A stretch of DNA of 20,839 nucleotides from Verrucomicrobiales bacterium (GTDB lineage Bacteria > Verrucomicrobiota > Verrucomicrobiia > Methylacidiphilales > JAAUTS01), in assembly GCA_031265105.1 (NCBI GenBank), contig JAISDC010000082.1, forward strand, positions 1 through 20,839. The letters run 5' to 3'. The notes under the pieces are model-generated. The model was not told where the DNA came from and searched no databases. It saw only the letters and a program-made list of their open reading frames with translations. The translations under genes were made by a program, and so were the position numbers. Below, in pieces: positions 1-20,839 of this stretch. Position 1 is the first letter of the stretch. Each line of letters starts with the position of its first letter.

Positions 1-2811
1 GCCGGGCCATTGCCACGGCCCTGGAGTCCGTGACCTCGACCGACGCCACCGCCTGGTTCCGTTCCTGCGGATATACGCCGTGGCCTGTTGAATCCATCTA
101 GTTTTGATGTGCTCTAGGGTGGTGTGGGCTTTCACCAACAGCGGGGGCATGGTCAGCGGGTCGTAGAGGTTGGCTAGGGTGGCGGTGGGGTAGTTGGCGC
201 GGATGTTCAGCACGGCGCGGGCGGCTTGCTCGACTTTGGCGCGTTGCGCCGCTGATGGTGTTGGCCACGGGAAATTGTTGTACACAAGTTTATTGGAGTA
301 GCGGTAGCGAGATTCTAAACGCCCGCAGACTTGTTTGGTCCATGCCATGTGCATCGCTGACGATAACACGCCAAAATGATAAAGCGTAGCTTCAGGGATG
401 GCGGCACAACTATTATGCACGATGGTTTTTGTCGTAAAATAACCGAACGGAATATAAGTACGTGTTTCCGAAGTGTGAAGTGGAACCAAAATATAAGTTT
501 TTTTCGGTTGCCGAATTTCCGCGAACAGCGACGGTGTTTTTGCTACCTCGCGGGTGGGAGCTTTTTTGCTCGCCAAACGAAAATCTTTGCACGCTTGGAC
601 ACGCTTTTTCACGCCGGGATTTTCCGCAATTATTTTTGGCGGTGCATCCACCAGCCACAGACAATAGCGCCGCTGACCATGAAGAAATTCTTCGGCGGAA
701 ACCATCGGGCGCACATACGGTGCCGCTGACGGATTGTCTTTGATAAATTGCGCGCGTTCGTTTTCCTCAATAATCAAATGCCCACCGTCAGCGGGTTTGT
801 TGCCGTAGATGATGGACGGCACATCGCACAATGGTTTGGAGCGCGACGTAATCACACTGTCAGCGCCTTCAATTAAATACGGGTTGATGTTTTTGACCGC
901 GCTGATGGTGGAATGTTCATCGTCAGCGACGTAGTCGTAGATTTTTTTGTGGTCACGGTCAGCGATGCCGAAACCGATGATGACGCAATGCACGTGCGCT
1001 TTGCCGGGCGCTTCGCTCGCCCATTTGAAGGTGTGGTGGGCGAAGTGAATTTTAACGCCACGCTGGAACAAACGCGACCAGAGCGCGCCGGGTTGTTCGC
1101 CTTGCGTGATGCTGTTGGTGGAGACGAAGGCTGCGCTGATGGTGAAATTTTTTTGCATATACTCCACTGCTTTCACATACCATGCGGTGACGTAATCCAA
1201 AATACCCGTGCCGTTGACGGTGCCGAAGACGCGCTCCATGTCTTGCGATTGCTCGACGGTCATCAAATGTTTGCCGACAAACGGCGGATTGCCCAGCACG
1301 TAGCTGCACGCTGACGGTGGCAGGATTTTTTCCCAGTCCACCGTCAGCGCGTTGGCGAGGTGGATGTGCGGGGCGGCTTTGAGTGGCAGGCGTTTGAATT
1401 GTTGTCCCATTTTTTCCGCCAGTTCGCTGTTACTTTGGTGGTCTTGCAGCCACAGGCCGACTTTGGCGATGCGGGCGGGCCATTCGCTGATTTCAATGCC
1501 ATAGAATTGGTCAACGTCCACGCACGCGAGGTTGCGGATGTCGAGTTCGGTTTGGACTTGACCGGCAGCGTCCCGATGCAGCGCGACGATGACGGCGTTT
1601 TCCATGACGCGCAGTTCGCGGTAGGCGAGGATGAGGAAGTTGCCGCAGCCGCAGGCGGGGTCGAGGAGTTTGATGTGACGCAGTTTTTTTGGGAACTCTT
1701 TCAAGCGCGTTACGCGGCGCGAGGAGCGGTCGCTGACGATGAGGCGCAGTTCGTCGCGGAGTTCGTTGAGGAACAGGTCGTTGAGCAACTTCATGATGTC
1801 GCGCTCGCCGGTGTAGTGCGCGCCGAGTTGCCGCCGCGCCTGGTCGTCCATGACGCCTTGGAAGAGCGAGCCGAAGATGGCGGGGGAGATTTTCGCCCAC
1901 TGGTAATCGCAGCAGCGGAGGAGCGCGTCGCGTTGCGCGGTGTCGAAGTGGCACACGGGCAGACGGTCGGCGAAGAGTCCGCCGTTGACGTGCGGGAACA
2001 GGTCGAATGTTGCGTGGCGCTGACGGCGCGCCGGCTCGGTGTCGAGTGTCCACCATAGTTCCGCGAGGGTGCCGCCGAGGTGGCGCGGCTCGGTGTGGCG
2101 GATGAGTTCGGTGAAACTTTGCGGCTCGAAGATGAACGAGTCTTCCGCGAACAGGCAAAAGAGCAGGCGCACGAGGTAACGCTCCAGTTCGCGGCGCGGG
2201 TAGTTGGTCGCTGACAGTGAGTCGTGCAAGTCGGCGAGGAGTTGCGCGGCTTTGATGTTCGCCGCGCGCTCGGTGTGGACGCGGACGCGCTGTTCGCCGA
2301 CGAGGAAGGCGAAGTCGCGGACGTGTTGCGGCAGGTCGCTGAGGGTGAACTCGGTGAGGTGATATTGGTGGTCGTCGAAGAGGGGGAGACCGAGGCGGTG
2401 GTCTTGCGGGTCGAGGTCAATGATGCGGAAGCGGGCGAAGTCGCACAGGACGATGAAGCGCGGGAGGTCGTTATGGCGACCGTCAGCGGCGAGGTCATGG
2501 ACGTAGCCGATGGCTTGCTGCTGCGCGGTGTCAATGTCGGCGCCGCGTGATTTGTGTTCGACGAGCATGACGCCTTTCCAGAAAAAATCAATGAACCCGC
2601 GCCCGCCGCTGACGGTGGCGACGGGGACTTCAAACGCGCCGAGGACGCGGCTGGGCAGACCGAAGGCGGCGAGGAGTTCGTGCCAGAAGAGTTGTTTGTC
2701 GGCGTTTTCGCGGGAGGCAGTTTTCCATGTGTCGGCGAAGCGCGCGGCGTTGGCGCGGATTTCCGCCCAAGTGAGCCGCGCTGACGGTGTGGGGTGCCGC
2801 TGTGGTTCCAT
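1..2811 (-). CDS. MmeI-family Type IIL/IIG restriction-modification enzyme (endonuclease plus N6-adenine methyltransferase fusion). Partial: the C-terminus lies beyond the window start.
   Basis: I translated the reverse complement myself. Frame-0 reading starts at ATG 2811..2809 (MEPQRHPTPSARLTWAEIRANAARFADTWK...). The upstream in-frame stop is the GNAT TAG at 2889..2887. N-terminal nuclease motif D-x9-E-x-K sits in GRGFIDFFWKGVMLVEHKSRG, as in MmeI (GFVDLFWPGILLIEMKSRG). Further blocks that match the MmeI sequence as I recall it: YLVRLLFCLFAEDSFIFE, RISPAIFGSLFQGVMDDQARRQLGAHYTGE, LDPACGCGNFLILAYRELR (SAM motif I), VLGNPPFVGK (NPPF motif IV), AFVSTNSITQGEQ, AHVHCVIIGFG, GRLESRYRYSNKLVYNNFPWP, LYDPLTMPP. 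There is no in-frame stop down to position 1, so the gene is at least 936 codons. It is not in the ORF track because it has no in-window stop. The last ~35 in-window codons are R/W-rich and atypical. Confidence 0.85.
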   Translation of the reverse strand, partial: MEPQRHPTPSARLTWAEIRANAARFADTWKTASRENADKQLFWHELLAAFGLPSRVLGAFEVPVATVSGGRGFIDFFWKGVMLVEHKSRGADIDTAQQQAIGYVHDLAADGRHNDLPRFIVLCDFARFRIIDLDPQDHRLGLPLFDDHQYHLTEFTLSDLPQHVRDFAFLVGEQRVRVHTERAANIKAAQLLADLHDSLSATNYPRRELERYLVRLLFCLFAEDSFIFEPQSFTELIRHTEPRHLGGTLAELWWTLDTEPARRQRHATFDLFPHVNGGLFADRLPVCHFDTAQRDALLRCCDYQWAKISPAIFGSLFQGVMDDQARRQLGAHYTGERDIMKLLNDLFLNELRDELRLIVSDRSSRRVTRLKEFPKKLRHIKLLDPACGCGNFLILAYRELRVMENAVIVALHRDAAGQVQTELDIRNLACVDVDQFYGIEISEWPARIAKVGLWLQDHQSNSELAEKMGQQFKRLPLKAAPHIHLANALTVDWEKILPPSACSYVLGNPPFVGKHLMTVEQSQDMERVFGTVNGTGILDYVTAWYVKAVEYMQKNFTISAAFVSTNSITQGEQPGALWSRLFQRGVKIHFAHHTFKWASEAPGKAHVHCVIIGFGIADRDHKKIYDYVADDEHSTISAVKNINPYLIEGADSVITSRSKPLCDVPSIIYGNKPADGGHLIIEENERAQFIKDNPSAAPYVRPMVSAEEFLHGQRRYCLWLVDAPPKIIAENPGVKKRVQACKDFRLASKKAPTREVAKTPSLFAEIRQPKKTYILVPLHTSETRTYIPFGYFTTKTIVHNSCAAIPEATLYHFGVLSSAMHMAWTKQVCGRLESRYRYSNKLVYNNFPWPTPSAAQRAKVEQAARAVLNIRANYPTATLANLYDPLTMPPLLVKAHTTLEHIKTRWIQQATAYIRRNGTRRWRRSRSRTPGPWQWPG

Positions 2812-2886
2812 CGAAAATATGCTGCGGATACGACCGTGAAAAGTCAACGGGGCTGATGGTGATGGCACCGCCGGTTTTGCGTGGCG

Positions 2887-3285
2887 CTAACGGTGGGCGT
2901 TATCAATGACCCCGCCGCGGAGAATGTGGAAGCCGTGGTCGCGGTAGAAGGATTCTTTTTCCGGGACAAAGGTGGTCCAGATACATTGGATGCCGTCCGT
3001 GGTCAGCGCGGTGACCGCGGTGGAGATTAGTTTTGCGCCGAGACCTTGTTTTTGATACTGCGGGTGGACGATGATGTTGACTAACAAAGCGTCGCCAACG
3101 CCGTCACTGATGACGTTTAAGAAAGCCGCCAGCCGCTGACGGTCACGCGCCGTGAAATAGCAGTACGAACCGCGCAACACCCGGGCTTGGGTGTGTTCGC
3201 AAGGTTCCCAGCCGACCGCCGCGCGCAATGCGGCGATTTCTCCGGGGGTGACGGGCTGGTTGCGTTCGATGGGTGGCAGTGTCAT
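2887..3285 (-). CDS. GNAT-family N-acetyltransferase, 132 aa
   Basis: ATG at 3285. Acetyl-CoA binding block Q/R-x-x-G-x-G/A is present (HPQYQKQGLGAKLISTAV). Size and beta-alpha layout are typical of small GNATs. The stop is 75 bp upstream of the RM gene start on the same strand. Confidence 0.75.
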   Translation of the reverse strand: MTLPPIERNQPVTPGEIAALRAAVGWEPCEHTQARVLRGSYCYFTARDRQRLAAFLNVISDGVGDALLVNIIVHPQYQKQGLGAKLISTAVTALTTDGIQCIWTTFVPEKESFYRDHGFHILRGGVIDNAHR

Positions 3286-3337
3286 GATATGCTATTAAAC
3301 CATATTCCTGCGCTAGCCCATCGTTTTTTCTCATCTC

Positions 3338-3366
3338 TTGAACCATCGATTGATTTCGTTTACCAT
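3338..3366 (+). promoter_or_regulatory. candidate sigma70-like promoter for the MIF-like gene (TTGAAC - 17 bp - TACCAT). The -10 hexamer ends 5 nt before the ATG, implying a leaderless or near-leaderless mRNA.
   Basis: TTGAAC at 3338-3343, a 17-nt spacer, TACCAT at 3361-3366, ATG at 3372. There is no Shine-Dalgarno sequence upstream of the ATG. The region is AT-rich and divergent, shared with the GNAT/RM operon. Confidence 0.3.
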
Positions 3367-3371
3367 GCGGC

Positions 3372-3716
3372 ATGCCTGTTCTCAAAATCCAAACCAATCT
3401 TGTCCTCAGCAGCCAGGAACAGCAAGACGTGCTAAAAGCCGTCTCGCGATTGGCGGCCAAGGAGCTTGGCAAGCCGGAGCGTTATGTCATGGTCAGCGTC
3501 GAGACCGCCGCCGCCATGCTGTTCGGCGGCACCGACGATCCCTGCGCATTCGTTGAATTATGCAGTCTCGGACTGCCCGCTGACCAGGCGGCGCGCTTGT
3601 CGGCGATGATTTGCGGTTTATTAAAAGAGTCGCTGAACCTCGACCCGCGGCGGGTGTATATCAGGATGTCCGATCACCCGGCCAACCTGTGGGGGTGGAA
3701 CGGGGAGACGTTTTGA
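3372..3716 (+). CDS. macrophage migration inhibitory factor (MIF)-like protein of the tautomerase superfamily, 114 aa, Pro-1 type
   Basis: MPVLKIQTN...YVMVSV...GGTDDPCAFVELCSLGL...RVYIRMSDHPANLWGWNGETF aligns end to end with mammalian MIF (MPMFIVNTNVPRA...[32 protein letters not shown]...[22 protein letters not shown]). Length is identical (114 aa). The catalytic Pro immediately follows the Met. Confidence 0.8.
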   Translation: MPVLKIQTNLVLSSQEQQDVLKAVSRLAAKELGKPERYVMVSVETAAAMLFGGTDDPCAFVELCSLGLPADQAARLSAMICGLLKESLNLDPRRVYIRMSDHPANLWGWNGETF

Positions 3717-3812
3717 TTGAAGATTGATGATGGCCAATTGACTATTTGCCGATTGCGCGCGGCGCGCCAACTAACAAATTATCAATATTCAATGATCAAT
3801 GGAAAATTCCCC

Positions 3813-5725: not shown

Positions 5726-5965
5726 GAATTGATGGCGGCAGCCCGCTGTTAGTCTCCAGGATTTGTCGTACTTGTCGCCGAAAGAGGCTTCGTAGTCGAG
5801 GTGGAGTTGATTGTCAGCGTCAGCGCCGGGGGCTCGGTAATCTATATCGCTGCGGCCGTAACCGGCGTAAATTCCCAGATAGAGGTCACTGTCAGTGGAC
5901 AAGGTAAACTTAGTTATTTGTTCTTGGTTAAAATAGTGGTTTGAGGCTTGGTTGCTTCCCGCGCG
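5726..5965 (-). pseudogene. start-less remnant of an autotransporter beta-barrel domain, paralogous to the 3' end of the autotransporter at 18264..20839
   Basis: Minus-strand frame reads ...QEQITKFTLSTDSDLYLGIYAGYGRSDIDYRAPGADADNQLHLDYEASFGDKYDKSWRL... The autotransporter reads KFTLSADSDLYLGVFAGYGRSDLDYRTPGTDGELNSYYGG. About 80/99 nt are identical between 5813..5911 (reverse complement) and 20388..20486. The remnant has no Met start and is bounded by in-frame stops (TGA at 5968..5966, TAA at 5725..5723). Confidence 0.45.
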
Positions 5966-6078
5966 TCACCCTGAGCGGAGGCGAAGGGGCGGGTTGGCTC
6001 AGCAATGGAGCGGGCCGGTCCTGCGACGCGCTACGCTTGCCCAAGATGGGCGGGGACGCCAGCATGATGAAAATATAC

Positions 6079-6109
6079 TTGCTAGTCGAGGTCACTGTCA
6101 GCGTAGCAT
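6079..6109 (+). promoter_or_regulatory. candidate copA promoter with a 19-bp spacer (TTGCTA - 19 - TAGCAT). This geometry is typical of MerR/CueR-type metal-responsive promoters.
   Basis: TTGCTA at 6079-6084, a 19-nt spacer, TAGCAT at 6104-6109. Partial dyad GTCACTGTCAG in the spacer. No cueR gene is visible in the window. Confidence 0.2.
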
Positions 6110-6182
6110 CGGAATCATGACTGCCGGCGGCCAGGAACATTTTGCCGTTTGCGGGGCGCGGGGGCGGTGGCATACTCGCGGC

Positions 6183-8366
<2,184 letters not shown>

Positions 8367-12632: not shown

Positions 12633-13856
12633 TCAACCGCACCGCGCCCCGTCCACCATGAACAACGCCGGCTTGCCCCGCGCGGCGGTCACCGCCAGAT
12701 ACGGATCCGTCCGCTCCGGCAGCGGGAACGCCACCAGGTCCGCCAGCGCGCCGCCGGCGATGACGCCCAGGACGCCCGCCTGGCCGAGTTGCGCGGCGGG
12801 CACGGTGGTCACCATGCGCAACCCTTCCTCGGCGCTGACGGCGGGGTGGGCGCGGCAGAACGCGCGCACCTCCGCGCGCAGATCCAGCACGTCGTTGCTC
12901 GCCAAACTGTCGGTGCCCAGCGACACGCTGCAACCGGCCGCGCGCAGGCGCTCGTACGGGAACCGCGCGCGGCCGAAGTAGGCGTGGCAGCGCGGGCAAT
13001 GCACCACCGGCAGCGGTTGCCGGCGCAGCAGCAGTTCATCGCGCGCCGACACGTGGTTCAAGTGCGCCACCAGGCATTGCGCGTCCAGCAGCCCGTCCGC
13101 CAGCAGGCGGGCCAGCGCGGAGTCCTGCCCGCAATCGCCCATGTCGCGGCCCGCGCCCCGGAAAAACTCGAACAGCGCGCCCCGCCGGTGCGCGAACATC
13201 TCTTGCTCCTCGTCGGACTCCGCGACGTGCGTGGTCAGCAACAGCCCCTCGCGCCGCGCCAGGCGCAGCGCGCGCCGGTATAACCACGCGCTGGCGGTGT
13301 ACGGCGCGTGCGGGCTGAGGCCGCCGCCGCCCGGCCACGCGCGGCTGCGCGCGAAGAACTCCAGCGCCAGCGTCAGCGCCTCGTCCGCCGCCGCCCGCGA
13401 GCGCGCGTCAATCAACTCGACGCACCACCACGTCCGCAACGGCGGGCGCGGCAGCAACGGCAGCACTTCGGGAAACGCCGCGATGTTGCACACCGTCGTG
13501 CAGCCGCTGTCGGCGAGTAATTGGAACCCGCGCGCGATGGCGGCCAGCCAGTCGCTGACGGTGAAGCTGCGCTTGAGGGTGTTGATGCGTTTTATCCACT
13601 CGGTGAACGGCAGCCCCGGCGGAATCGCGCCCTGGAGATTGGTGTAATCCAAATGGCAGTGCGCGTTAATCAACCCCGGCAGCAACACGCACCCCGGCAA
13701 GTCCAGCACCGTTTCGCCCGCCGCCGGCGTCAACCCCGCGCCGACCGCCGCGATGCGGTTGCCGCTGACCCTGACCGCCGCGCCCGCCAGCGGCGGCCCG
13801 GTCATCGTCAGCGTCATGGCGGGGCGGATGAGCATGGCCGTAATGCGCTCGCGCAT
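12633..13856 (-). CDS. metal-dependent amidohydrolase of the TRZ/ATZ, SsnA/MtaD-like deaminase family
   Basis: HxH metal-binding motif (LINAHCHLDYT). Downstream His/Asp ligands (TTHVAES, LVAHLNH, SLGTDS). Its start overlaps the def stop by 1 nt (TGATG). Confidence 0.7.
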   Translation of the reverse strand: MRERITAMLIRPAMTLTMTGPPLAGAAVRVSGNRIAAVGAGLTPAAGETVLDLPGCVLLPGLINAHCHLDYTNLQGAIPPGLPFTEWIKRINTLKRSFTVSDWLAAIARGFQLLADSGCTTVCNIAAFPEVLPLLPRPPLRTWWCVELIDARSRAAADEALTLALEFFARSRAWPGGGGLSPHAPYTASAWLYRRALRLARREGLLLTTHVAESDEEQEMFAHRRGALFEFFRGAGRDMGDCGQDSALARLLADGLLDAQCLVAHLNHVSARDELLLRRQPLPVVHCPRCHAYFGRARFPYERLRAAGCSVSLGTDSLASNDVLDLRAEVRAFCRAHPAVSAEEGLRMVTTVPAAQLGQAGVLGVIAGGALADLVAFPLPERTDPYLAVTAARGKPALFMVDGARCG

Positions 13857-17059: not shown

Positions 17060-17377
17060 GTGCAGGAAGCGCATACTGCATTGCATGATTTGCCTCCTGC
17101 GGCGCGGGAACCGAATACTGCAACGCATGACGCGCATCCTGCAACGCAGGAGTCGAATACTGCACTGCATGATTCACCTCCTGCGGCGCGGGAACCGCAT
17201 ACTGCAACGCATGACGCGCATCCTGCAATGCAGGAGTCGAATACTGCGCCGCATGATTCACCTCCTGCGGTGCGGGAAGCGCATACTGCAACGCATGACA
17301 CACCTCCTGCCGAGCAGGATTACCCACTTTTGGCGGCTGTGTGGCCGCCATTAAACCAACCCCAAAGGAACCCATGA
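17060..17377 (+). CDS. possible 105-aa repeat protein (14-aa HD/P/T-rich repeats) encoded by the 42-bp array. Coding status and strand are uncertain.
   Basis: GTG start at 17060. Its TGA stop overlaps the ATG of the next gene (ATGA at 17374-17377), which suggests translational coupling. The unit length is a multiple of 3. A minus-strand alternative exists (ATG 17351 to stop 17034: MAATQPPKVGNPARQEV, then a 14-aa repeat alternating PAPQEVNHAAQYST / PALQDARHALQYAV). Neither candidate has a Shine-Dalgarno sequence. Confidence 0.25.
   Translation: MQEAHTALHDLPPAAREPNTATHDAHPATQESNTALHDSPPAAREPHTATHDAHPAMQESNTAPHDSPPAVREAHTATHDTPPAEQDYPLLAAVWPPLNQPQRNP
17073..17324. repeat. 42-bp tandem repeat array, about 6 units, with two alternating unit types forming an 84-bp higher-order repeat
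   Basis: Units start with ATACTGCA at 17073, 17115, 17157, 17199, 17241 and 17283. Odd units read ...GCATGATTYRCCTCCTGCGGYGCGGGAASCGM. Even units read ...AACGCATGACGCGCATCCTGCAAYGCAGGAGTCGA. Units contain short stem-loops such as CCTGCaacGCAGG. All six frames are open across the array. Confidence 0.9.
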
Positions 17378-18129
17378 ATAGAAACCAACATGCAGTCAGC
17401 AACATCAGCGTCAAAAAATACATCCACAAAACCTGGGACGGTATTGACGACTTCTTCACCCAATACGGCGACAACCTCGTCAACGTCCAGACCAAAACCG
17501 ACCCCGGTCTCGCCGACGCCGACATCGCCAATGTCAAGGAAACCACCGCCGCCTACGGCAAATTGAACCAAGCCATTGACGAAGTGGAAAGACTCCTCGC
17601 CGCCCTGCGCGCCCTGCGCATCCAACTCCTCACCCAGCAAACTATGGACCCCGTCCGCGTCCCCCTCATCCAACCCCTCACCACCCTCCTTGCCGCCATC
17701 GAAGGCAAACGCGGCGGCTTGCTCTGGCAAGAAGACCGCCTCACCGACCGCATCTTCCGCAGCCCCAGATGCACCCAGGAAGACTACGAAATGCTCGGCA
17801 TCGTTTACAAACCCAACACTTCAGCCCCCATTGATAACCTCATCGGCAAACTCTACGCCGTGTTTGACGGCGGCAAAGTTCCGATCCATTGGACCCTCCC
17901 GCGCGGCTACCACAACGCCCGCCTCACCGCCAGCACCAACCACGGCGAATGGGTACTACTCTACGAAGGCAGCGAAAGCCACTTCATCGACGCGCGCCCC
18001 ATCCCCGCCATCTCCGAAATCCGCTCCTACAAACTCGAAATCATGGAAACCGGCAAACCCATCGGCAAACCCGCCATCGACAAAATCCTCGTCGGCCAAG
18101 ACATCTCCGTCGAAGAAACCAAACTCTAA
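17374..18129 (+). CDS. hypothetical protein, 251 aa. No domain recognised; no signal peptide.
   Basis: AAAGGAA Shine-Dalgarno sequence 4-5 nt upstream of ATG 17374. Protein-like composition (MNRNQHAVSNISVKKYIHKTWDGIDDFF...). Codon usage has more A/T-ending codons than the core genes and resembles the adjacent autotransporter. A long inverted-repeat terminator follows it. Confidence 0.6.
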   Translation: MNRNQHAVSNISVKKYIHKTWDGIDDFFTQYGDNLVNVQTKTDPGLADADIANVKETTAAYGKLNQAIDEVERLLAALRALRIQLLTQQTMDPVRVPLIQPLTTLLAAIEGKRGGLLWQEDRLTDRIFRSPRCTQEDYEMLGIVYKPNTSAPIDNLIGKLYAVFDGGKVPIHWTLPRGYHNARLTASTNHGEWVLLYEGSESHFIDARPIPAISEIRSYKLEIMETGKPIGKPAIDKILVGQDISVEETKL

Positions 18130-18263: not shown

Positions 18264-20839
18264 ATGAAAACCTCCAACATGAAAACACGAAAACTAACCC
18301 TGATACTAACCCTCCTCTGCGCCCTCAGCGTCTCCGCGTTGAACATCTTCGCGGAAAACAAAATCGTCAATACCGGCACCGTGGTGGAATCCGGCAGTAC
18401 CTACGCCGCCTCCACCAATCAGTCGGCCCTGACGGTCAGCGGCAGCGGGACGCTGTACGAGGGCACTAACCTTACTTTGTCCAGCACCGAGACCAACCAG
18501 CATGGCGTCTTCGTCAACACCCAAGGCGCGCTATCGTTACGTGACAGCACGGTTTTCACTTCCGCCACTGGCGCTTACGGCATTGCGTTGACCACCACCT
18601 CGTCCGCCAGCCTGGAACGTGTCGCGGTCACGGTCAGCGAAGCGTTTTCGCATGGCATCTATATGTTGAACTCCAAGCTGTCCGTGACCGACGCGACAGT
18701 GGTGATTTCGGCATCCAATAGGAACGGTCATTTCGACGGAATATACATCGGCAACACCAGCGAAGCTGATTTGACAAATGTGAGCGTAGAATTACGGGGC
18801 GACCAGACCAACGGCATCAGCATCCTCAACACCGCCACCGACAAAAGCACCGTCACGGCCACCGGTATCAACATTGCCGCGCAAGGCGAACTTGCCGACG
18901 GTCGGGCCAATGTCAGCGGTGTCACCGTAGAAGGTAACGCGGACCTGCAAATGCGCGATTTTTTAGTCACGGTGCGCGACGGTAATGCGGGCGTGAACAC
19001 TTGGACGAACCCTATACTACGGGTTGACGAGTTTGTGACGCTGCGCAGCGGCACCATCATTATGATTGATAGCGGCGCCGGGATTAATGTCGGCGGCAAC
19101 GGTAATCGCTATGTGGCATTGCACGATGTGGCTATCAGCGCGAGCGGCGAGGACACCCATGCCATTCTTATGGACACGCGCGGGTTGGACATTGATGACA
19201 AAGTTCTGCTGGTTGACGGCGGCAAGTTCATCGCCGAAAACGGGGCGGCGCTCCGGGTGGGGCTGTTCGGCGAGACATCCGAGCTCAATGCCACGCAGTC
19301 CGCGGGCGCCAACTATACCGTCACCATCACCGGCAGCGCCGCCCTCAGCGGCACGGCGGCCATGGAATTCGGCACCACCGCCATTGCCCCCAGCGGCACG
19401 GCCTACGAACTGGTCAACCACGCCCGCATAACCGTGGCGGATGGCTCCACCCTCACCGGTGCCACCAACATCCACGGCAACTCCGACGTGAATATAGAAC
19501 TCACCGACAACTCCGCCCTGACCGGCGACCTTACCGCCAGCGGCTCGTCCAACACCACCCTCAGCGGCAGCAACGGCGCCACCATCACCGGCACCGTCAG
19601 CGGCAACGATAACGCCGTCATCGACCTCACCGTCAGAGGCCCCGGCAGCACCATCATCAGTGACATTAACCAAAACGACGACGCAGCCGTCACCATCACC
19701 CTCGATAACAGCGCCACCGGCCAAGGCGGCTACCACGGCGGCAACCTCATCACCGGCAGCGATAGCACCTGGACTTTTGACAAGGACAGCCACGGCAACT
19801 ACGGCGAAAACAATGGCACTTGGAACATCGGCGACTACGAAGTCATCTTCGATAACATGACCCACACCGGCACCGTTAACATCAGCGTCAACACCGACAC
19901 CGGCGACGGCGGCTCTATCACTGTGGATACCGCTGACGGTGAAGGCACCGTCCACATCGACACCACCGGCAACGGTAAACTCAACCCCAACGACGTACTC
20001 CCCGGCGTCGTCACCGGCGACGGCACGGAACACTGGCAATGGGATCCCATCGACTGGGGCATCGACACCATCATCAAAGACGGCGACCACTTCATCAAAC
20101 AAGGCACCAGCCCCGCCGGCGCAGAATTGAACAGCAGCGTAGCCATCCAACAAGCCAGGTGGTTCGCGCAGCAAAACAGCCTGCTCAAACGCATGGGTGA
20201 CCTCCGCTTTTCGTCATCCCGTCAACTCGTCACCTCGTCGTCTGACAAAGCCGTCACCCTCAGCGCTGCCAACCTGATCGAAAACATCTGGCTCAGAAGC
20301 TACGGCCAACAATTAAACGTCGGCAGTAAAGTATCAGGCAAAGCCTACGAACAACTCATCTACGGCGTGGACTTGGGCACTGACCATAAGTTCACCTTGT
20401 CCGCTGACAGTGACTTATATCTGGGCGTCTTCGCCGGTTACGGCCGCAGCGACCTCGACTACCGCACCCCCGGCACTGACGGTGAACTCAACTCCTACTA
20501 CGGCGGCCTCTACGCCACGTGGTTACACAGCAGCGGCCTCTACATCGACGCTACCGTCAAAGCCGCCAGCGTGGACAACAATCTAAAAGCTCCCTACAGC
20601 GGCAGTCAAATCACCGCCAACTACAGTGATGTGAACCTCGGCGGCAGCATCGAAATCGGGAAGAAGTTCACCTTCGCTGATGATTGGTTCATCGAACCCC
20701 AGTTTCAAGTCAACTACCTCCACATCCTCGCCGAGGACTATCAAGCCGGCCCCATGAGCATCACCGCCAGCGACCTCGACGCCCTCCAGTTCAGAATCGG
20801 CAGCGTATTCGGCCGCACCCTCAAGCTCGCCAACGGCGG
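18264..20839 (+). CDS. classical (type Va) autotransporter: signal peptide, Gly/Thr/Asn-rich beta-helical passenger, C-terminal beta-barrel. Partial: runs off the window end.
   Basis: MKTSNMKTRKLTLILTLLCALSVSALNIFA signal peptide. The passenger has repetitive beta-helix-like tracts (TLSGSNGATITGTVSGNDNAVIDLTV...). The junction reads AIQQARWFAQQNSLLKRMGDLRF...NIWLRSYGQQ, followed by barrel strands (YLGVFAGYGRSDLDY...GGLYATWLH...GGSIEIGKKF...). No stop occurs before 20839, hence it is absent from the ORF track. Confidence 0.85.
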   Translation, partial: MKTSNMKTRKLTLILTLLCALSVSALNIFAENKIVNTGTVVESGSTYAASTNQSALTVSGSGTLYEGTNLTLSSTETNQHGVFVNTQGALSLRDSTVFTSATGAYGIALTTTSSASLERVAVTVSEAFSHGIYMLNSKLSVTDATVVISASNRNGHFDGIYIGNTSEADLTNVSVELRGDQTNGISILNTATDKSTVTATGINIAAQGELADGRANVSGVTVEGNADLQMRDFLVTVRDGNAGVNTWTNPILRVDEFVTLRSGTIIMIDSGAGINVGGNGNRYVALHDVAISASGEDTHAILMDTRGLDIDDKVLLVDGGKFIAENGAALRVGLFGETSELNATQSAGANYTVTITGSAALSGTAAMEFGTTAIAPSGTAYELVNHARITVADGSTLTGATNIHGNSDVNIELTDNSALTGDLTASGSSNTTLSGSNGATITGTVSGNDNAVIDLTVRGPGSTIISDINQNDDAAVTITLDNSATGQGGYHGGNLITGSDSTWTFDKDSHGNYGENNGTWNIGDYEVIFDNMTHTGTVNISVNTDTGDGGSITVDTADGEGTVHIDTTGNGKLNPNDVLPGVVTGDGTEHWQWDPIDWGIDTIIKDGDHFIKQGTSPAGAELNSSVAIQQARWFAQQNSLLKRMGDLRFSSSRQLVTSSSDKAVTLSAANLIENIWLRSYGQQLNVGSKVSGKAYEQLIYGVDLGTDHKFTLSADSDLYLGVFAGYGRSDLDYRTPGTDGELNSYYGGLYATWLHSSGLYIDATVKAASVDNNLKAPYSGSQITANYSDVNLGGSIEIGKKFTFADDWFIEPQFQVNYLHILAEDYQAGPMSITASDLDALQFRIGSVFGRTLKLANG

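What the first reader, a model, noticed from the sequence alone, without database searches (positions are those of the whole stretch)
1..3285. Cryptic MmeI-like Type IIL RM enzyme co-transcribed with a GNAT acetyltransferase; compositionally mosaic 3' third; not in ORF track
The largest gene in the window is invisible in the supplied ORF list because it lacks an in-window stop.

It carries the MmeI-type D-x9-E-x-K nuclease, SAM motif I and NPPF motif IV. It is therefore a single-chain restriction-plus-modification enzyme, which modifies one strand only and cuts at a distance.

Two unusual points:
- A 132-aa GNAT gene sits 75 bp upstream on the same strand with no other obvious promoter, suggesting an operon. 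I know of no reported GNAT and Type IIL pairing. The GNAT could be an accessory or regulator, or an unrelated passenger.
- The segment from about 380 to 900 is markedly AT-rich (about 48% GC by eye, against more than 60% elsewhere). It encodes the region aligned to the MmeI target-recognition/C-terminal part (codons about 637-811). This may point to a recently exchanged specificity module.

The final ~35 codons are R/W-rich and unlike MmeI tails, so a frameshift or an early true stop near position ~100 cannot be excluded.
Basis: partly seen in the sequence, partly recalled or inferred. Interest (0 to 1): 0.65.

Follow-up and report, generated by a model that had tools for sequence, protein, structure and literature searches.

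The report
IS-interrupted, mosaic MmeI-type restriction-modification gene
This is an ordinary member of the well-known MmeI family of one-protein restriction-plus-methylation enzymes; its DNA-recognition half came from a different lineage, its end is cut off by a jumping gene, and the neighbouring acetyltransferase is probably just a neighbour.

Summary
A 937-codon open frame runs on the minus strand from the ATG at 2811 off the contig end. It has all five MmeI Pfam domains, the D75-x9-E85-x-K87 nuclease motif, SAM motif I and NPPF, and matches MmeI (PDB 5HR4) at E=2e-250.

The odd R/W-rich tail is neither a frameshift nor a novel C-terminus. Positions 1-114 are the right end of an IS630-family insertion sequence, inserted at the TA of a native CTAG at codon 899/900. 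About 46 residues of the C-terminal helical bundle are missing, and the contig breaks inside the repeat.

The AT-rich segment is real: TRD GC3 is 0.48 against 0.81 expected, z=-11. The gene is a statistically robust mosaic. Its front half resembles one relative (72-90% identity) and its back half another (70-86%), with a breakpoint near aa 480 (p=4e-33). However, a GC3 dip in the TRD is family-wide (79 loci, mean -0.14), and the nearest back-half relative is only about 78% identical. The exchange is therefore supported, but not shown to be recent.

The GNAT pairing recurs only at the same, decayed locus of one close relative. It is absent from 8 other GNAT-orthologue loci and is not recurrent next to 79 other MmeI loci.

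Verdict: a new member of a known kind, of low interest.

The parts
1..114 (+). Right end of an IS630-family insertion sequence. It holds the transposase 3' end (codons at 3-98, stop TAG at 99-101) and then the 13-nt terminus TTTTGATGTGCTC (102-114). The contig ends inside the element.
   Evidence: The peptide RAIATALESVTSTDATAWFRSCGYTPWPVESI is 76% identical to the C-terminus of P0253. It aligns to the C-termini of ORFs that pass the NCBIfam IS630 cut-off and Pfam DDE_3. In 38 of 42 such loci the element ends GCT[CA] followed by TA, 7-22 nt after the stop. In the window the distance is 13 nt.
115..116 (.). TA target dinucleotide of the IS630-type insertion, within the native CTAG of the MmeI_C coding region.
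   Evidence: Homologues L003, L001 and L002 read CCCTAGAC / CATTGGAC / CCCTGAAC and continue in mutual homology. The window diverges right after CCCTA. IS630 targets the TA in CTAG (PMC2577343, Table 1, citing Tenzen & Ohtsubo 1991).
115..2811 (-). Native part of the MmeI-family (Type IIL) restriction-modification gene, codons 1-899. The frame then reads on through the IS (codons 900-937, positions 114-1) with no stop in the window.
   Evidence: All five MmeI Pfam domains are present. PADLOC REase_MTase_IIG scores 1076 bits. MmeI 5HR4 matches at E=2e-250, aa 13-900 aligned to 3-873 of 919.
2212..2751 (-). N-terminal PD-(D/E)XK endonuclease domain (aa 21-200). The catalytic residues D75, E85 and K87 lie at 2551-2589.
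   Evidence: MmeI_N scores 4.6e-37. D-x9-E-x-K is read in the translation and aligned to MmeI D70/E80/K82 (PMC2731913).
1972..2190 (-). Helical spacer domain (aa 208-280).
   Evidence: MmeI_hel scores 1.3e-19.
937..1719 (-). Gamma-class N6-adenine methyltransferase domain (aa 365-625). Motif I DPACGCG lies at 1642-1662 and motif IV NPPF at 1279-1290.
   Evidence: MmeI_Mtase scores 1.9e-86. These residues are invariant in a 30-sequence alignment.
1366..1377 (-). Inferred recombination breakpoint (aa 478-482). Upstream the gene resembles P0010; downstream it resembles P0002.
   Evidence: By maximum chi-square, informative sites split 100:12 upstream and 20:109 downstream. Fisher p=4e-33; observed statistic 128 against a permutation maximum of 16.9. 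The sliding identity profile agrees.
259..867 (-). Target recognition domain (aa 649-851). The strongly AT-rich part is aa 649-810, positions 382-867.
   Evidence: MmeI_TRD scores 5.1e-74. GC3 is 0.48 observed against 0.81 expected, z=-11.4. Nucleotide homology to the sister locus L003 resumes at window 381.
115..252 (-). Truncated C-terminal helical domain (aa 854-899). Only profile positions 3-49 of 83 are present.
   Evidence: MmeI_C scores 2.8e-16 with a partial match. All homologues continue for another 45-60 residues (...DRAVDxxYR...ERVExLF...LTAPL).
2812..2886 (-). 75-nt spacer between the GNAT stop and the RM start.
   Evidence: No terminator-like site lies on this strand. The fold is no more stable than shuffles, z=0.46. 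No consensus sigma-70 promoter was scored. The spacer is conserved at 91.5% nt identity in L003.
2887..3285 (-). Small GNAT N-acetyltransferase gene (132 aa), the upstream same-strand neighbour.
   Evidence: Acetyltransf_7/1/10 are above the Pfam cut-offs. Only weak sub-threshold RimI-like NCBIfam hits were found and no PADLOC hit.

Best explanation
Positions 115-2811 (minus strand) encode a chromosomal MmeI-family Type IIL restriction-modification enzyme of a Verrucomicrobiales bacterium.

**How an intact enzyme would work (by homology).** One polypeptide binds an asymmetric 6-7-bp site with its TRD. It flips out and N6-methylates one adenine on one strand using the gamma-class MTase domain. 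On unmodified DNA it cuts about 20 nt away with the N-terminal PD-(D/E)XK nuclease, and it needs two sites for efficient cleavage.

**Two things have happened to this copy.**
1. It is a recombinant. Residues up to about 478 share ancestry with one lineage (P0010, another Verrucomicrobiales MAG). Residues from about 482 onward (the C-lobe of the MTase plus the TRD) share ancestry with another lineage (P0002). The TRD keeps a foreign, AT-rich codon composition.
2. An IS630-family element has inserted at the TA of a CTAG at codon 899/900. It removes about 46 residues of the C-terminal helical bundle and fuses the frame to antisense IS sequence. The short-read contig ends in this repeat, which is why no stop codon is seen. 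The gene is therefore probably inactivated or impaired (inferred, not shown).

**The GNAT.** The upstream GNAT gene is plausibly co-transcribed, since the gap is 75 nt and holds no terminator. It is best read as a neighbour without a dedicated role in restriction.

**Shown:** family membership, motifs, mosaic ancestry, composition, the IS junction, and the lack of GNAT recurrence.

**Inferred:** enzymatic behaviour, loss of function, co-transcription, and a tentative partial specificity of position 3 = Y(?), 4 = purine, 5 = methylated A, 6 = C.
For: **Family membership.**
- Five MmeI domains.
- PADLOC Type IIG model at 1076 bits, covering 3-883 of 912 profile positions.
- 5HR4 MmeI at E=2e-250.
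- 7,985 homologues at E<=1e-10.
- Catalytic and SAM motifs intact.

**Mechanism of the family.** One-strand methylation, the two-site requirement and D70/E80/K82 come from PMC2731913. The domain map comes from PMC4833311.

**Mosaic ancestry.**
- Per-domain identities: P0010 is 76-86% identical in the N, helical and linker regions but 48% in the TRD. P0002 is 47-58% in the front but 79% in the TRD.
- The sliding-window identities cross over near aa 476-500.
- Max-chi-square p=4e-33, and the statistic exceeds all 200 permutations.
- The sister locus L003 is 91.5% and 85.6% nt-identical on both sides, but carries a different TRD that is about 45% aa-identical.
- The window-P0002 pair belongs to the rare class 'back half >=70%, front <=55%' (23 of 718 pairs). 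Faster TRD evolution cannot produce that pattern.

**Composition.**

**IS insertion.**, plus PMC2577343.

**GNAT not linked.**
- Eight GNAT-orthologue loci (52-68% identity) contain no MmeI.
- No GNAT family recurs among 102 upstream ORFs from 79 MmeI loci.
- No orthologue was found among 217 flanking ORFs.
- The upstream gene at P0002's locus is not a GNAT by inspection of its 34-residue partial product.

**Specificity residues.** MmeI E751/N773/A774/E806/R808/R810 align to L778/N800/S801/E833/R835/R837, read with the code of PMC2731914.
Against: - Only one end of the IS is visible. Just 32 transposase residues fall in the window, so the IS630 assignment rests on a C-terminal motif, the conserved terminus and the TA/CTAG target.
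- The other junction and the remaining 3' part of the gene were not found.
- The IS insertion could be present in only part of the population.
- Loss of function is an inference. The role of the C-terminal helices is unknown (PMC2731913).
- The direction and date of the exchange cannot be set from three sequences.
- The compositional boundary (about aa 649) does not coincide with the ancestry breakpoint (about aa 480).
- GC3 dips in the TRD are family-wide, so the dip alone does not prove an exchange here.
- The GNAT-RM block has a sharp left boundary, 2 nt before the GNAT ATG, in two different genomic contexts: MIF in the window and PPK2-like in L003. That leaves some room for the two genes travelling together.
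Confidence: 0.82

Rival explanations
1. GNAT and the MmeI-like gene form a functional two-gene cassette. The acetyltransferase would be an accessory or regulator of the RM enzyme, or the two would move together as one mobile module.
For: - Same strand, 75-nt spacer, and no terminator.
- GNAT, spacer and the first 13 RM codons are conserved at 91.5% nt identity in an independent assembly, L003.
- The homology starts 2 nt before the GNAT ATG, while the upstream neighbour differs: MIF in the window, PPK2-like in L003.
- GNAT GC3 is slightly below host expectation, z=-4.0.
- GNAT orthologues sit in varied contexts, one of them next to a DDE transposase.
Against: - The only recurrence is the same locus in one close relative, so it is shared descent rather than independent association.
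- Eight other GNAT-orthologue loci lack MmeI.
- No GNAT family recurs in the nearest upstream ORFs of 79 MmeI-family loci, and no orthologue appears among 217 flanking ORFs.
- The upstream neighbour at P0002's locus is a 34-residue partial product that does not look like a GNAT by inspection.
- No PADLOC model hits the GNAT.
- MmeI enzymes work alone in vitro (PMC2731913).
Confidence: 0.06
2. The non-homologous tail is an artefact (a frameshift, a sequencing error or a chimeric contig end) or a genuinely novel C-terminal extension, rather than an IS insertion.
For: - The junction lies only 114 nt from a contig end, where assemblies are least reliable.
- Only one side of the putative IS is seen.
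- The frame stays open to the end of the contig.
Against: - No frame of positions 1-114 encodes the missing MmeI_C sequence.
- The opposite strand encodes a recognisable IS630 transposase C-terminus, followed at the modal 13-nt distance by the conserved GCTC terminus and a TA within a native CTAG.
- The R/W-rich composition is what an antisense reading gives.
- Contigs breaking just inside a multicopy IS are expected in short-read assemblies.
Confidence: 0.06
3. The AT-rich TRD and the low TRD identity to the nearest front-half relative reflect only faster, AT-biased divergence of the specificity domain in place, with no lateral exchange.
For: - TRD GC3 is lower than the front domains in nearly all of 79 family loci from many phyla. 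The mean difference is -0.14 for the TRD and -0.17 for its core, and the dip also occurs in AT-rich hosts.
- 25% of pairs with front >=70% identity have back halves <=55% identical.
Against: - The back half of the window protein is much closer to P0002 (70-86%) than its front half is (40-62%). That is the reverse of what faster TRD evolution predicts.
- The crossover is abrupt and highly significant.
- L003 has >85% nt identity on both flanks but an unalignable TRD.
Confidence: 0.12

Closest known systems
MmeI (Methylophilus methylotrophus) and the MmeI family of Type IIL / IIG restriction-modification enzymes (PDB 5HR4; Pfam PF20464, PF20465, PF20473, PF20466, PF20467)
   Same: - Same five-domain order.
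- D-x9-E-x-K nuclease motif, gamma-class m6A MTase motifs I and IV, and the FPWP motif after the TRD.
- E=2e-250 over residues 13-900.
- The position-6 and position-4 contact residues E/R/R are identical to MmeI E806/R808/R810.
   Different: - The last ~46 residues of the C-terminal helical bundle are absent and replaced by IS-derived read-through.
- 12 extra N-terminal residues.
- The position-3 contact is L778 in place of E751, and position 774 is S in place of A. The recognition site is therefore probably not TCCRAC.
- The nearest database relative is only 63% identical overall.
IS630-family insertion sequences (NCBIfam NF033545; IS630/Tc1/mariner superfamily)
   Same: - Transposase C-terminal motif AIxxALxxVTxxDAxxWFxxCGY.
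- Element terminus ...GCTC 13 nt after the stop codon.
- Insertion at a TA within CTAG.
   Different: Only the last 114 nt are in the window. The DDE domain, the left end and the second TA duplication are not visible.
Domain movement or TRD exchange in specificity determinants of Type I and Type IIG systems (for example Helicobacter pylori, PMC3983042)
   Same: A specificity-bearing segment has a different ancestry from the catalytic backbone of the same gene.
   Different: Here the exchanged block begins inside the MTase domain, near aa 480, in a single-chain MmeI-type enzyme. The partners are 70-86% identical rather than near-identical alleles. No repeats or an allelic pool are seen in the window. 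The PMC3983042 paper was seen only as an abstract in a search listing.
BREX PglX and DISARM DrmMI methyltransferases
   Same: They share the MmeI-like gamma MTase/TRD core, giving weak to moderate partial hits.
   Different: Scores are far below the family cut-offs (27 bits against 900 for BREX-6 PglX). The window protein has the N-terminal nuclease that those proteins lack. No BREX or DISARM partner genes are in the window.

Membership tests
MmeI family (Type IIL RM enzymes) | Five-domain single polypeptide: PD-(D/E)XK nuclease, helical spacer, gamma-class m6A MTase, TRD and C-terminal helical region. | tested here: met
   All five Pfam MmeI domains are above their cut-offs and in order. The alignment with MmeI 5HR4 is colinear.
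MmeI family (Type IIL RM enzymes) | Catalytic D-x9-E-x-K (MmeI D70/E80/K82). | tested here: met
   D75, E85 and K87 are present and aligned. They are nearly invariant in the alignment.
MmeI family (Type IIL RM enzymes) | SAM-binding motif I and catalytic motif IV NPPF/Y. | tested here: met
   DPACGCGNF (aa 384-392) and NPPF (aa 508-511) are invariant across 30 homologues.
MmeI family (Type IIL RM enzymes) | Complete C-terminal helical bundle (MmeI residues 826-919). | tested here: not met
   Homology ends at MmeI residue 873. The Pfam MmeI_C match covers only positions 3-49 of 83. The rest is displaced by the IS. This reflects disruption of a family member, not non-membership.
MmeI family (Type IIL RM enzymes) | Methylation of one adenine on one strand only, cleavage about 20/18 nt from an asymmetric site, and a two-site requirement. 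| not testable with these tools
   This needs a methylome or biochemistry. The properties are taken from PMC2731913.
IS630 family insertion sequence | DDE (DD35E-type) transposase matching NF033545 / Pfam DDE_3. | tested here: inconclusive
   Only the last 32 residues are in the window, and they give no Pfam hit on their own. They align at 41-58% identity to the C-termini of ORFs, of which the four tested (L092, L137, L146, L131) pass NF033545 and DDE_3. They are 76% identical to P0253.
IS630 family insertion sequence | Insertion at a TA, preferentially within CTAG, with TA duplication. | tested here: met
   The visible junction is ...GCTC|TA|GGG at a site that reads CTAG in the closest homologue, L003 (PMC2577343). 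The second TA copy lies outside the window.
IS630 family insertion sequence | Conserved element terminus a few nucleotides after the transposase stop. | tested here: met
   38 of 42 related loci end GCT[CA]+TA, 7-22 nt after the stop. In the window the distance is 13 nt.
GNAT superfamily | Acetyltransf (GNAT) fold profile above the curated cut-off. | tested here: met
   PF13508 scores 44.2 bits (cut-off 27), PF00583 39.4 (cut-off 20.7) and PF13673 34.7 (cut-off 23.6). No specific NCBIfam equivalog was reached; RimI scores 33 bits against a cut-off of 86.
BREX PglX / DISARM DrmMI | Full-length match above the family cut-off, with partner genes present. | tested here: not met
   NF033455 scores 27.4 bits against a cut-off of 900. 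The PADLOC DrmMI and PglX hits are only partial. The neighbouring genes are housekeeping.

The most novel reading that the evidence does not exclude
GNAT plus the MmeI-like gene is a two-gene unit that moves as a block and is functionally coupled. For example, the acetyltransferase might modulate the RM enzyme or a host target during establishment. This would explain why the block keeps its exact left boundary, 2 nt before the GNAT ATG, in two different chromosomal contexts (window and L003).

A more sober and separate possibility is that MTase-C-lobe+TRD cassettes of MmeI-type enzymes circulate across phyla. That would leave the family-wide AT-rich GC3 footprint seen in 79 loci.
Probability: 0.06. 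Interest if true: 0.55.

Novelty: new member of a known kind. Interest (0 to 1): 0.2.

Why it matters
For annotation, a 'hypothetical protein, partial' can be renamed as an IS630-disrupted MmeI-family Type IIL RM gene. The puzzling tail is explained.

For RM biology, the locus is a clean natural example of a single-chain MmeI-type enzyme whose specificity half has a different ancestry from its nuclease half. Together with its sister locus L003, it also shows how quickly such genes decay through IS insertion, deletion and replacement.

The by-product survey may merit a dedicated study. TRD GC3 is lower than the rest of the gene in nearly all of 79 loci, and 23 of 718 pairs have similar back halves on dissimilar fronts. 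This hints that specificity modules of this engineering-relevant family are exchanged more widely than point-mutation models assume. It does not make this locus exceptional.

Tried and rejected
- **Frameshift.** I looked for the missing MmeI_C end in the other frames of positions 1-200. There is none, so the frameshift idea is rejected.
- **Repeats of the tail.** I looked for copies of the tail elsewhere in the window. Only chance 11-mers turned up.
- **Plasmid origin.** Megablast of 1-3300 against plasmids gave no match.
- **RNA features.** The Rfam scan at gathering thresholds and the tRNA scan of the whole window found nothing.
- **Closer TRD donor.** A protein search with the back half alone (aa 476-850) gave new hits of at most 65% identity. 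P0002, at about 78%, stays the closest, so no recent donor was identified.
- **GNAT as a defence gene.** PADLOC gave no hit on the GNAT.
- **Literature.** A search for GNAT with Type IIG/RM pairing found nothing relevant.
- **Promoter and terminator scan of 1-3800.** No site lies in the GNAT-RM spacer on the minus strand. The counts are no higher than in shuffles.
- **Tail peptide.** Pfam gave no hit on the 32-aa peptide alone. The 98-aa relative P0253 was used instead.
- **Downstream neighbours.** The 112 downstream ORFs of the 79 MmeI loci were screened only with local GNAT profiles, not with Pfam.

Full report
**1. The observation**

The window is a complete 20,839-bp contig of a Verrucomicrobiales metagenome-assembled genome. 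The database copy of the protein is named 'hypothetical protein LBK71_03700, partial'. On the minus strand the frame is open from 2886 to position 1, and the first ATG is at 2811, giving 937 codons with no stop. The ORF lister omits ORFs that run off an end, which is why the gene is 'invisible' in the ORF track.

The GNAT gene (2887-3285, minus strand, 132 aa) sits exactly 75 nt upstream. The low-GC stretch is real. GC is 0.47-0.53 across 301-1050, against 0.58-0.69 across 1201-2850.

**2. What the large gene is**

- All five Pfam MmeI domains are found in order: N 21-200, helical spacer 208-280, MTase 365-625, TRD 649-851 and C 854-900.
- A PADLOC Type IIG model scores 1076 bits over almost its whole length.
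- The solved MmeI structure 5HR4 matches at E=2e-250, with residues 13-900 aligned to MmeI 3-873.
- 7,985 homologues score E<=1e-10. The closest is 63% identical.

This is therefore a new but ordinary member of a large family. By homology (PMC2731913; PMC4833311) an intact enzyme would methylate one adenine on one strand of an asymmetric site. It would cut about 20 nt away and would need two sites.

I used the contact-residue code of Morgan & Luyten (PMC2731914) and the alignment. MmeI E751/N773/A774/E806/R808/R810 correspond to L778/N800/S801/E833/R835/R837. This gives a tentative reading: position 6 = C, position 4 = purine, and position 3 possibly pyrimidine (an uncharged residue plus N, as in PspPRI). 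This is an inference only.

**3. The tail**

All homologues continue after '...KAH(T/A)xLD' with 45-60 more residues, but the window protein does not. A four-way DNA alignment places the break right after CCCTA at window 115/114. Blastn homology to L003 ends at 113. No frame of positions 1-200 encodes the missing end.

The opposite strand reads ...RAIATALESVTSTDATAWFRSCGYTPWPVESI, followed by a stop at 99-101. The evidence for what this is:

- A search of 1.84 billion representatives found a 98-aa protein (P0253) whose C-terminus is 76% identical.
- That C-terminus hits the ends of annotated IS630-family transposases on plasmids.
- 67 metagenome loci were recovered with P0253. The window peptide aligns directly to the C-termini of their ORFs (motif AIxxALxxVTxxDAxxWFxxCGY). 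The four ORFs tested pass the NCBIfam IS630 cut-off and Pfam DDE_3.
- In 38 of 42 such loci the element ends GCT[CA] followed by TA, 7-22 nt after the stop, and the flanks diverge beyond that point.
- The window has the stop, then TTTTGATGTGCTC (13 nt), then TA (115-116), inside what is CTAG in the closest homologue. IS630 inserts at the TA of CTAG (PMC2577343).

So positions 1-114 are the right end of an IS630-family element inserted at codon 899/900. The R/W-rich 'tail' is antisense read-through. The contig stops inside the repeat, as short-read assemblies do.

About 46 residues, roughly half of the C-terminal helical bundle (MmeI 826-919), are missing. The function of that region is unknown, so loss of activity is likely but inferred.

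**4. The compositional mosaic**

GC3 falls from 0.74-0.90 (aa 1-400) to 0.40-0.50 (aa 676-800) and recovers to about 0.8. Other genes of the contig have GC3 of 0.73-0.92. After correcting for amino-acid content with host codon usage:

| Segment | Observed GC3 | Expected GC3 | z |
|---|---|---|---|
| Nuclease domain (aa 1-200) | 0.79 | 0.83 | -1.3 |
| Spacer (aa 201-364) | 0.86 | 0.83 | +1.1 |
| TRD (aa 649-810) | 0.48 | 0.81 | -11.4 |

'Uniform composition when computed properly' is therefore rejected.

The dip is not special to this locus, however. The closest relatives show it too. Across 79 family loci from many phyla, TRD GC3 is on average 0.14 lower than the front domains, and the TRD core 0.17 lower (minimum -0.36). 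The window, at -0.29 and -0.35, lies at the extreme end.

**5. Ancestry**

Domain-wise identities are discordant:

| Relative | N / helical / linker | TRD |
|---|---|---|
| P0010 (another Verrucomicrobiales MAG) | 76-86% | 48% |
| P0002 | 47-58% | 79% |

The sliding-window identities cross near aa 476-500. Maximum chi-square puts one breakpoint at aa 478-482 (window 1366-1377). Informative sites split 100:12 upstream and 20:109 downstream, with Fisher p=4e-33. The observed statistic is 128, against a maximum of 16.9 in 200 permutations.

Among 190 family members, pairs with similar back halves (>=70%) but dissimilar fronts (<=55%) are rare: 23 of 718, and the window-P0002 pair is one of them. 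Faster TRD evolution cannot make that pattern, so lateral exchange of the MTase-C-lobe+TRD block is the better reading.

The exchange is not demonstrably recent. P0002 is about 78% identical over the block, and a dedicated search found nothing closer.

**6. The sister locus L003**

This is an independent assembly whose GNAT is 90% identical. L003 297-757 matches window 3287-2772 at 91.5% nt identity, covering the GNAT, the spacer and the first 13 RM codons. L003 1792-2061 matches window 381-113 at 85.6%.

Between these two segments L003 carries a second acetyltransferase gene (Acetyltransf_3) and a different, internally deleted TRD fragment that is about 45% aa-identical to the window's TRD. 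Its GNAT also has a ~49-nt 5' deletion.

L003 confirms that the GNAT-RM adjacency is not an assembly artefact. It shows that the TRD has been replaced between close relatives, with the right edge at window 381, which is also the right edge of the AT-rich stretch. It also shows that this cassette is decaying in the lineage. L003 continues into an intact MmeI_C end, which confirms the window's break.

**7. The GNAT**

- It is a generic small GNAT with no specific equivalog and no PADLOC hit.
- No terminator and no stable hairpin lie in the 75-nt spacer, so co-transcription is plausible but untested.
- Only nine homologues exist in the 5.8-billion-protein set.
- Outside L003, eight loci with 52-68% identical orthologues have other neighbours and no MmeI. 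These include a DDE transposase, a UvrC-like protein, a ClC channel and a sigma factor.
- Among 79 MmeI-family loci, no GNAT family recurs in 102 nearest upstream ORFs. No GNAT orthologue is found among 217 flanking ORFs.
- The upstream neighbour of the closest full-length homologue, P0002, is a 34-residue partial product that does not look like a GNAT by inspection.

One loose end remains. The window/L003 homology begins 2 nt before the GNAT ATG, while the upstream genes differ (MIF in the window, PPK2-like in L003). So the two genes may have been transferred or rearranged as a block.

**8. Context**

The rest of the contig is housekeeping: MIF-type tautomerase, ABC-F, copper P-type ATPase, RmuC, cardiolipin-synthase-like PLD, GDSL lipase, amidohydrolase and SPFH. 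There are no other defence genes, no RNA genes and no plasmid match.

**9. Verdict**

This is a new member of the MmeI family with a laterally acquired specificity half, interrupted by an IS630-family element. The GNAT pairing is most likely incidental. Interest is low. The only mildly novel by-product is the family-wide AT-rich TRD and the evidence for back-half exchange.

Noticed in passing
L009-L088 (79 MmeI-family loci) and window 382-867: Third-position GC of the TRD is lower than that of the nuclease, spacer and MTase domains in nearly every family member, in both GC-rich and AT-rich hosts. The mean difference is -0.14 for the TRD and -0.17 for its core. In addition, 23 of 718 protein pairs have similar back halves on dissimilar fronts. 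This suggests widespread exchange or AT-biased turnover of specificity modules.
   Followed up: partly
L003 1-3096: The sister locus is decayed. Its GNAT has a ~49-nt 5' deletion. Most of the MmeI gene is replaced by an Acetyltransf_3 (RimJ/RimL-like) gene plus a foreign, internally deleted TRD fragment, while the MmeI_C end is intact. The upstream neighbour is PPK2-like rather than MIF.
   Followed up: partly
L002 1-60: The gene of the closest front-half relative, P0010, is 5'-truncated at a contig end. It is preceded by a GC-rich stretch that by eye looks palindromic (the frame-0 translation of L002 1-120 reads NVAQAILPVSQPEHRQDCLCH...). This could be a REP-like repeat that breaks the assembly. 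The DNA was not inspected and no repeat search was run.
   Followed up: no
window about 18270-20839 (+): A large ORF runs off the right contig end. It starts with a signal-peptide-like MKTSNMKTRKLTLILTLLCALSVSALNIFA and continues as T/S/G/N-rich repeats, resembling an autotransporter or adhesin. The region has strong negative GC skew and positive AT skew. The candidate ORFs at 17341-18129 and 19017-20174 gave no Pfam hit.
   Followed up: no
P0253 (98 aa, from the representative library): This ORF looks chimeric. Its N-terminal part weakly resembles the 23S rRNA intervening-sequence (four-helix-bundle) protein, and it is fused to the last ~50 residues of an IS630 transposase. It is probably another insertion junction read through.
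   Followed up: no
window 2841-2846 and 2815-2820 (minus strand): The GNAT-RM spacer contains TTGACT and, 20 nt downstream, CATATT just before the RM ATG. The spacing is non-canonical, so the consensus scan did not score it. It is a possible weak internal promoter, which would argue against obligatory co-transcription.
   Followed up: no
window 5952-8366 and 12633-13856: Composition is very heterogeneous within this housekeeping contig. The copper ATPase and amidohydrolase genes reach 0.69-0.72 GC (GC3 0.83-0.92), while MIF, ABC-F and GNAT are at 0.59-0.61.
   Followed up: no
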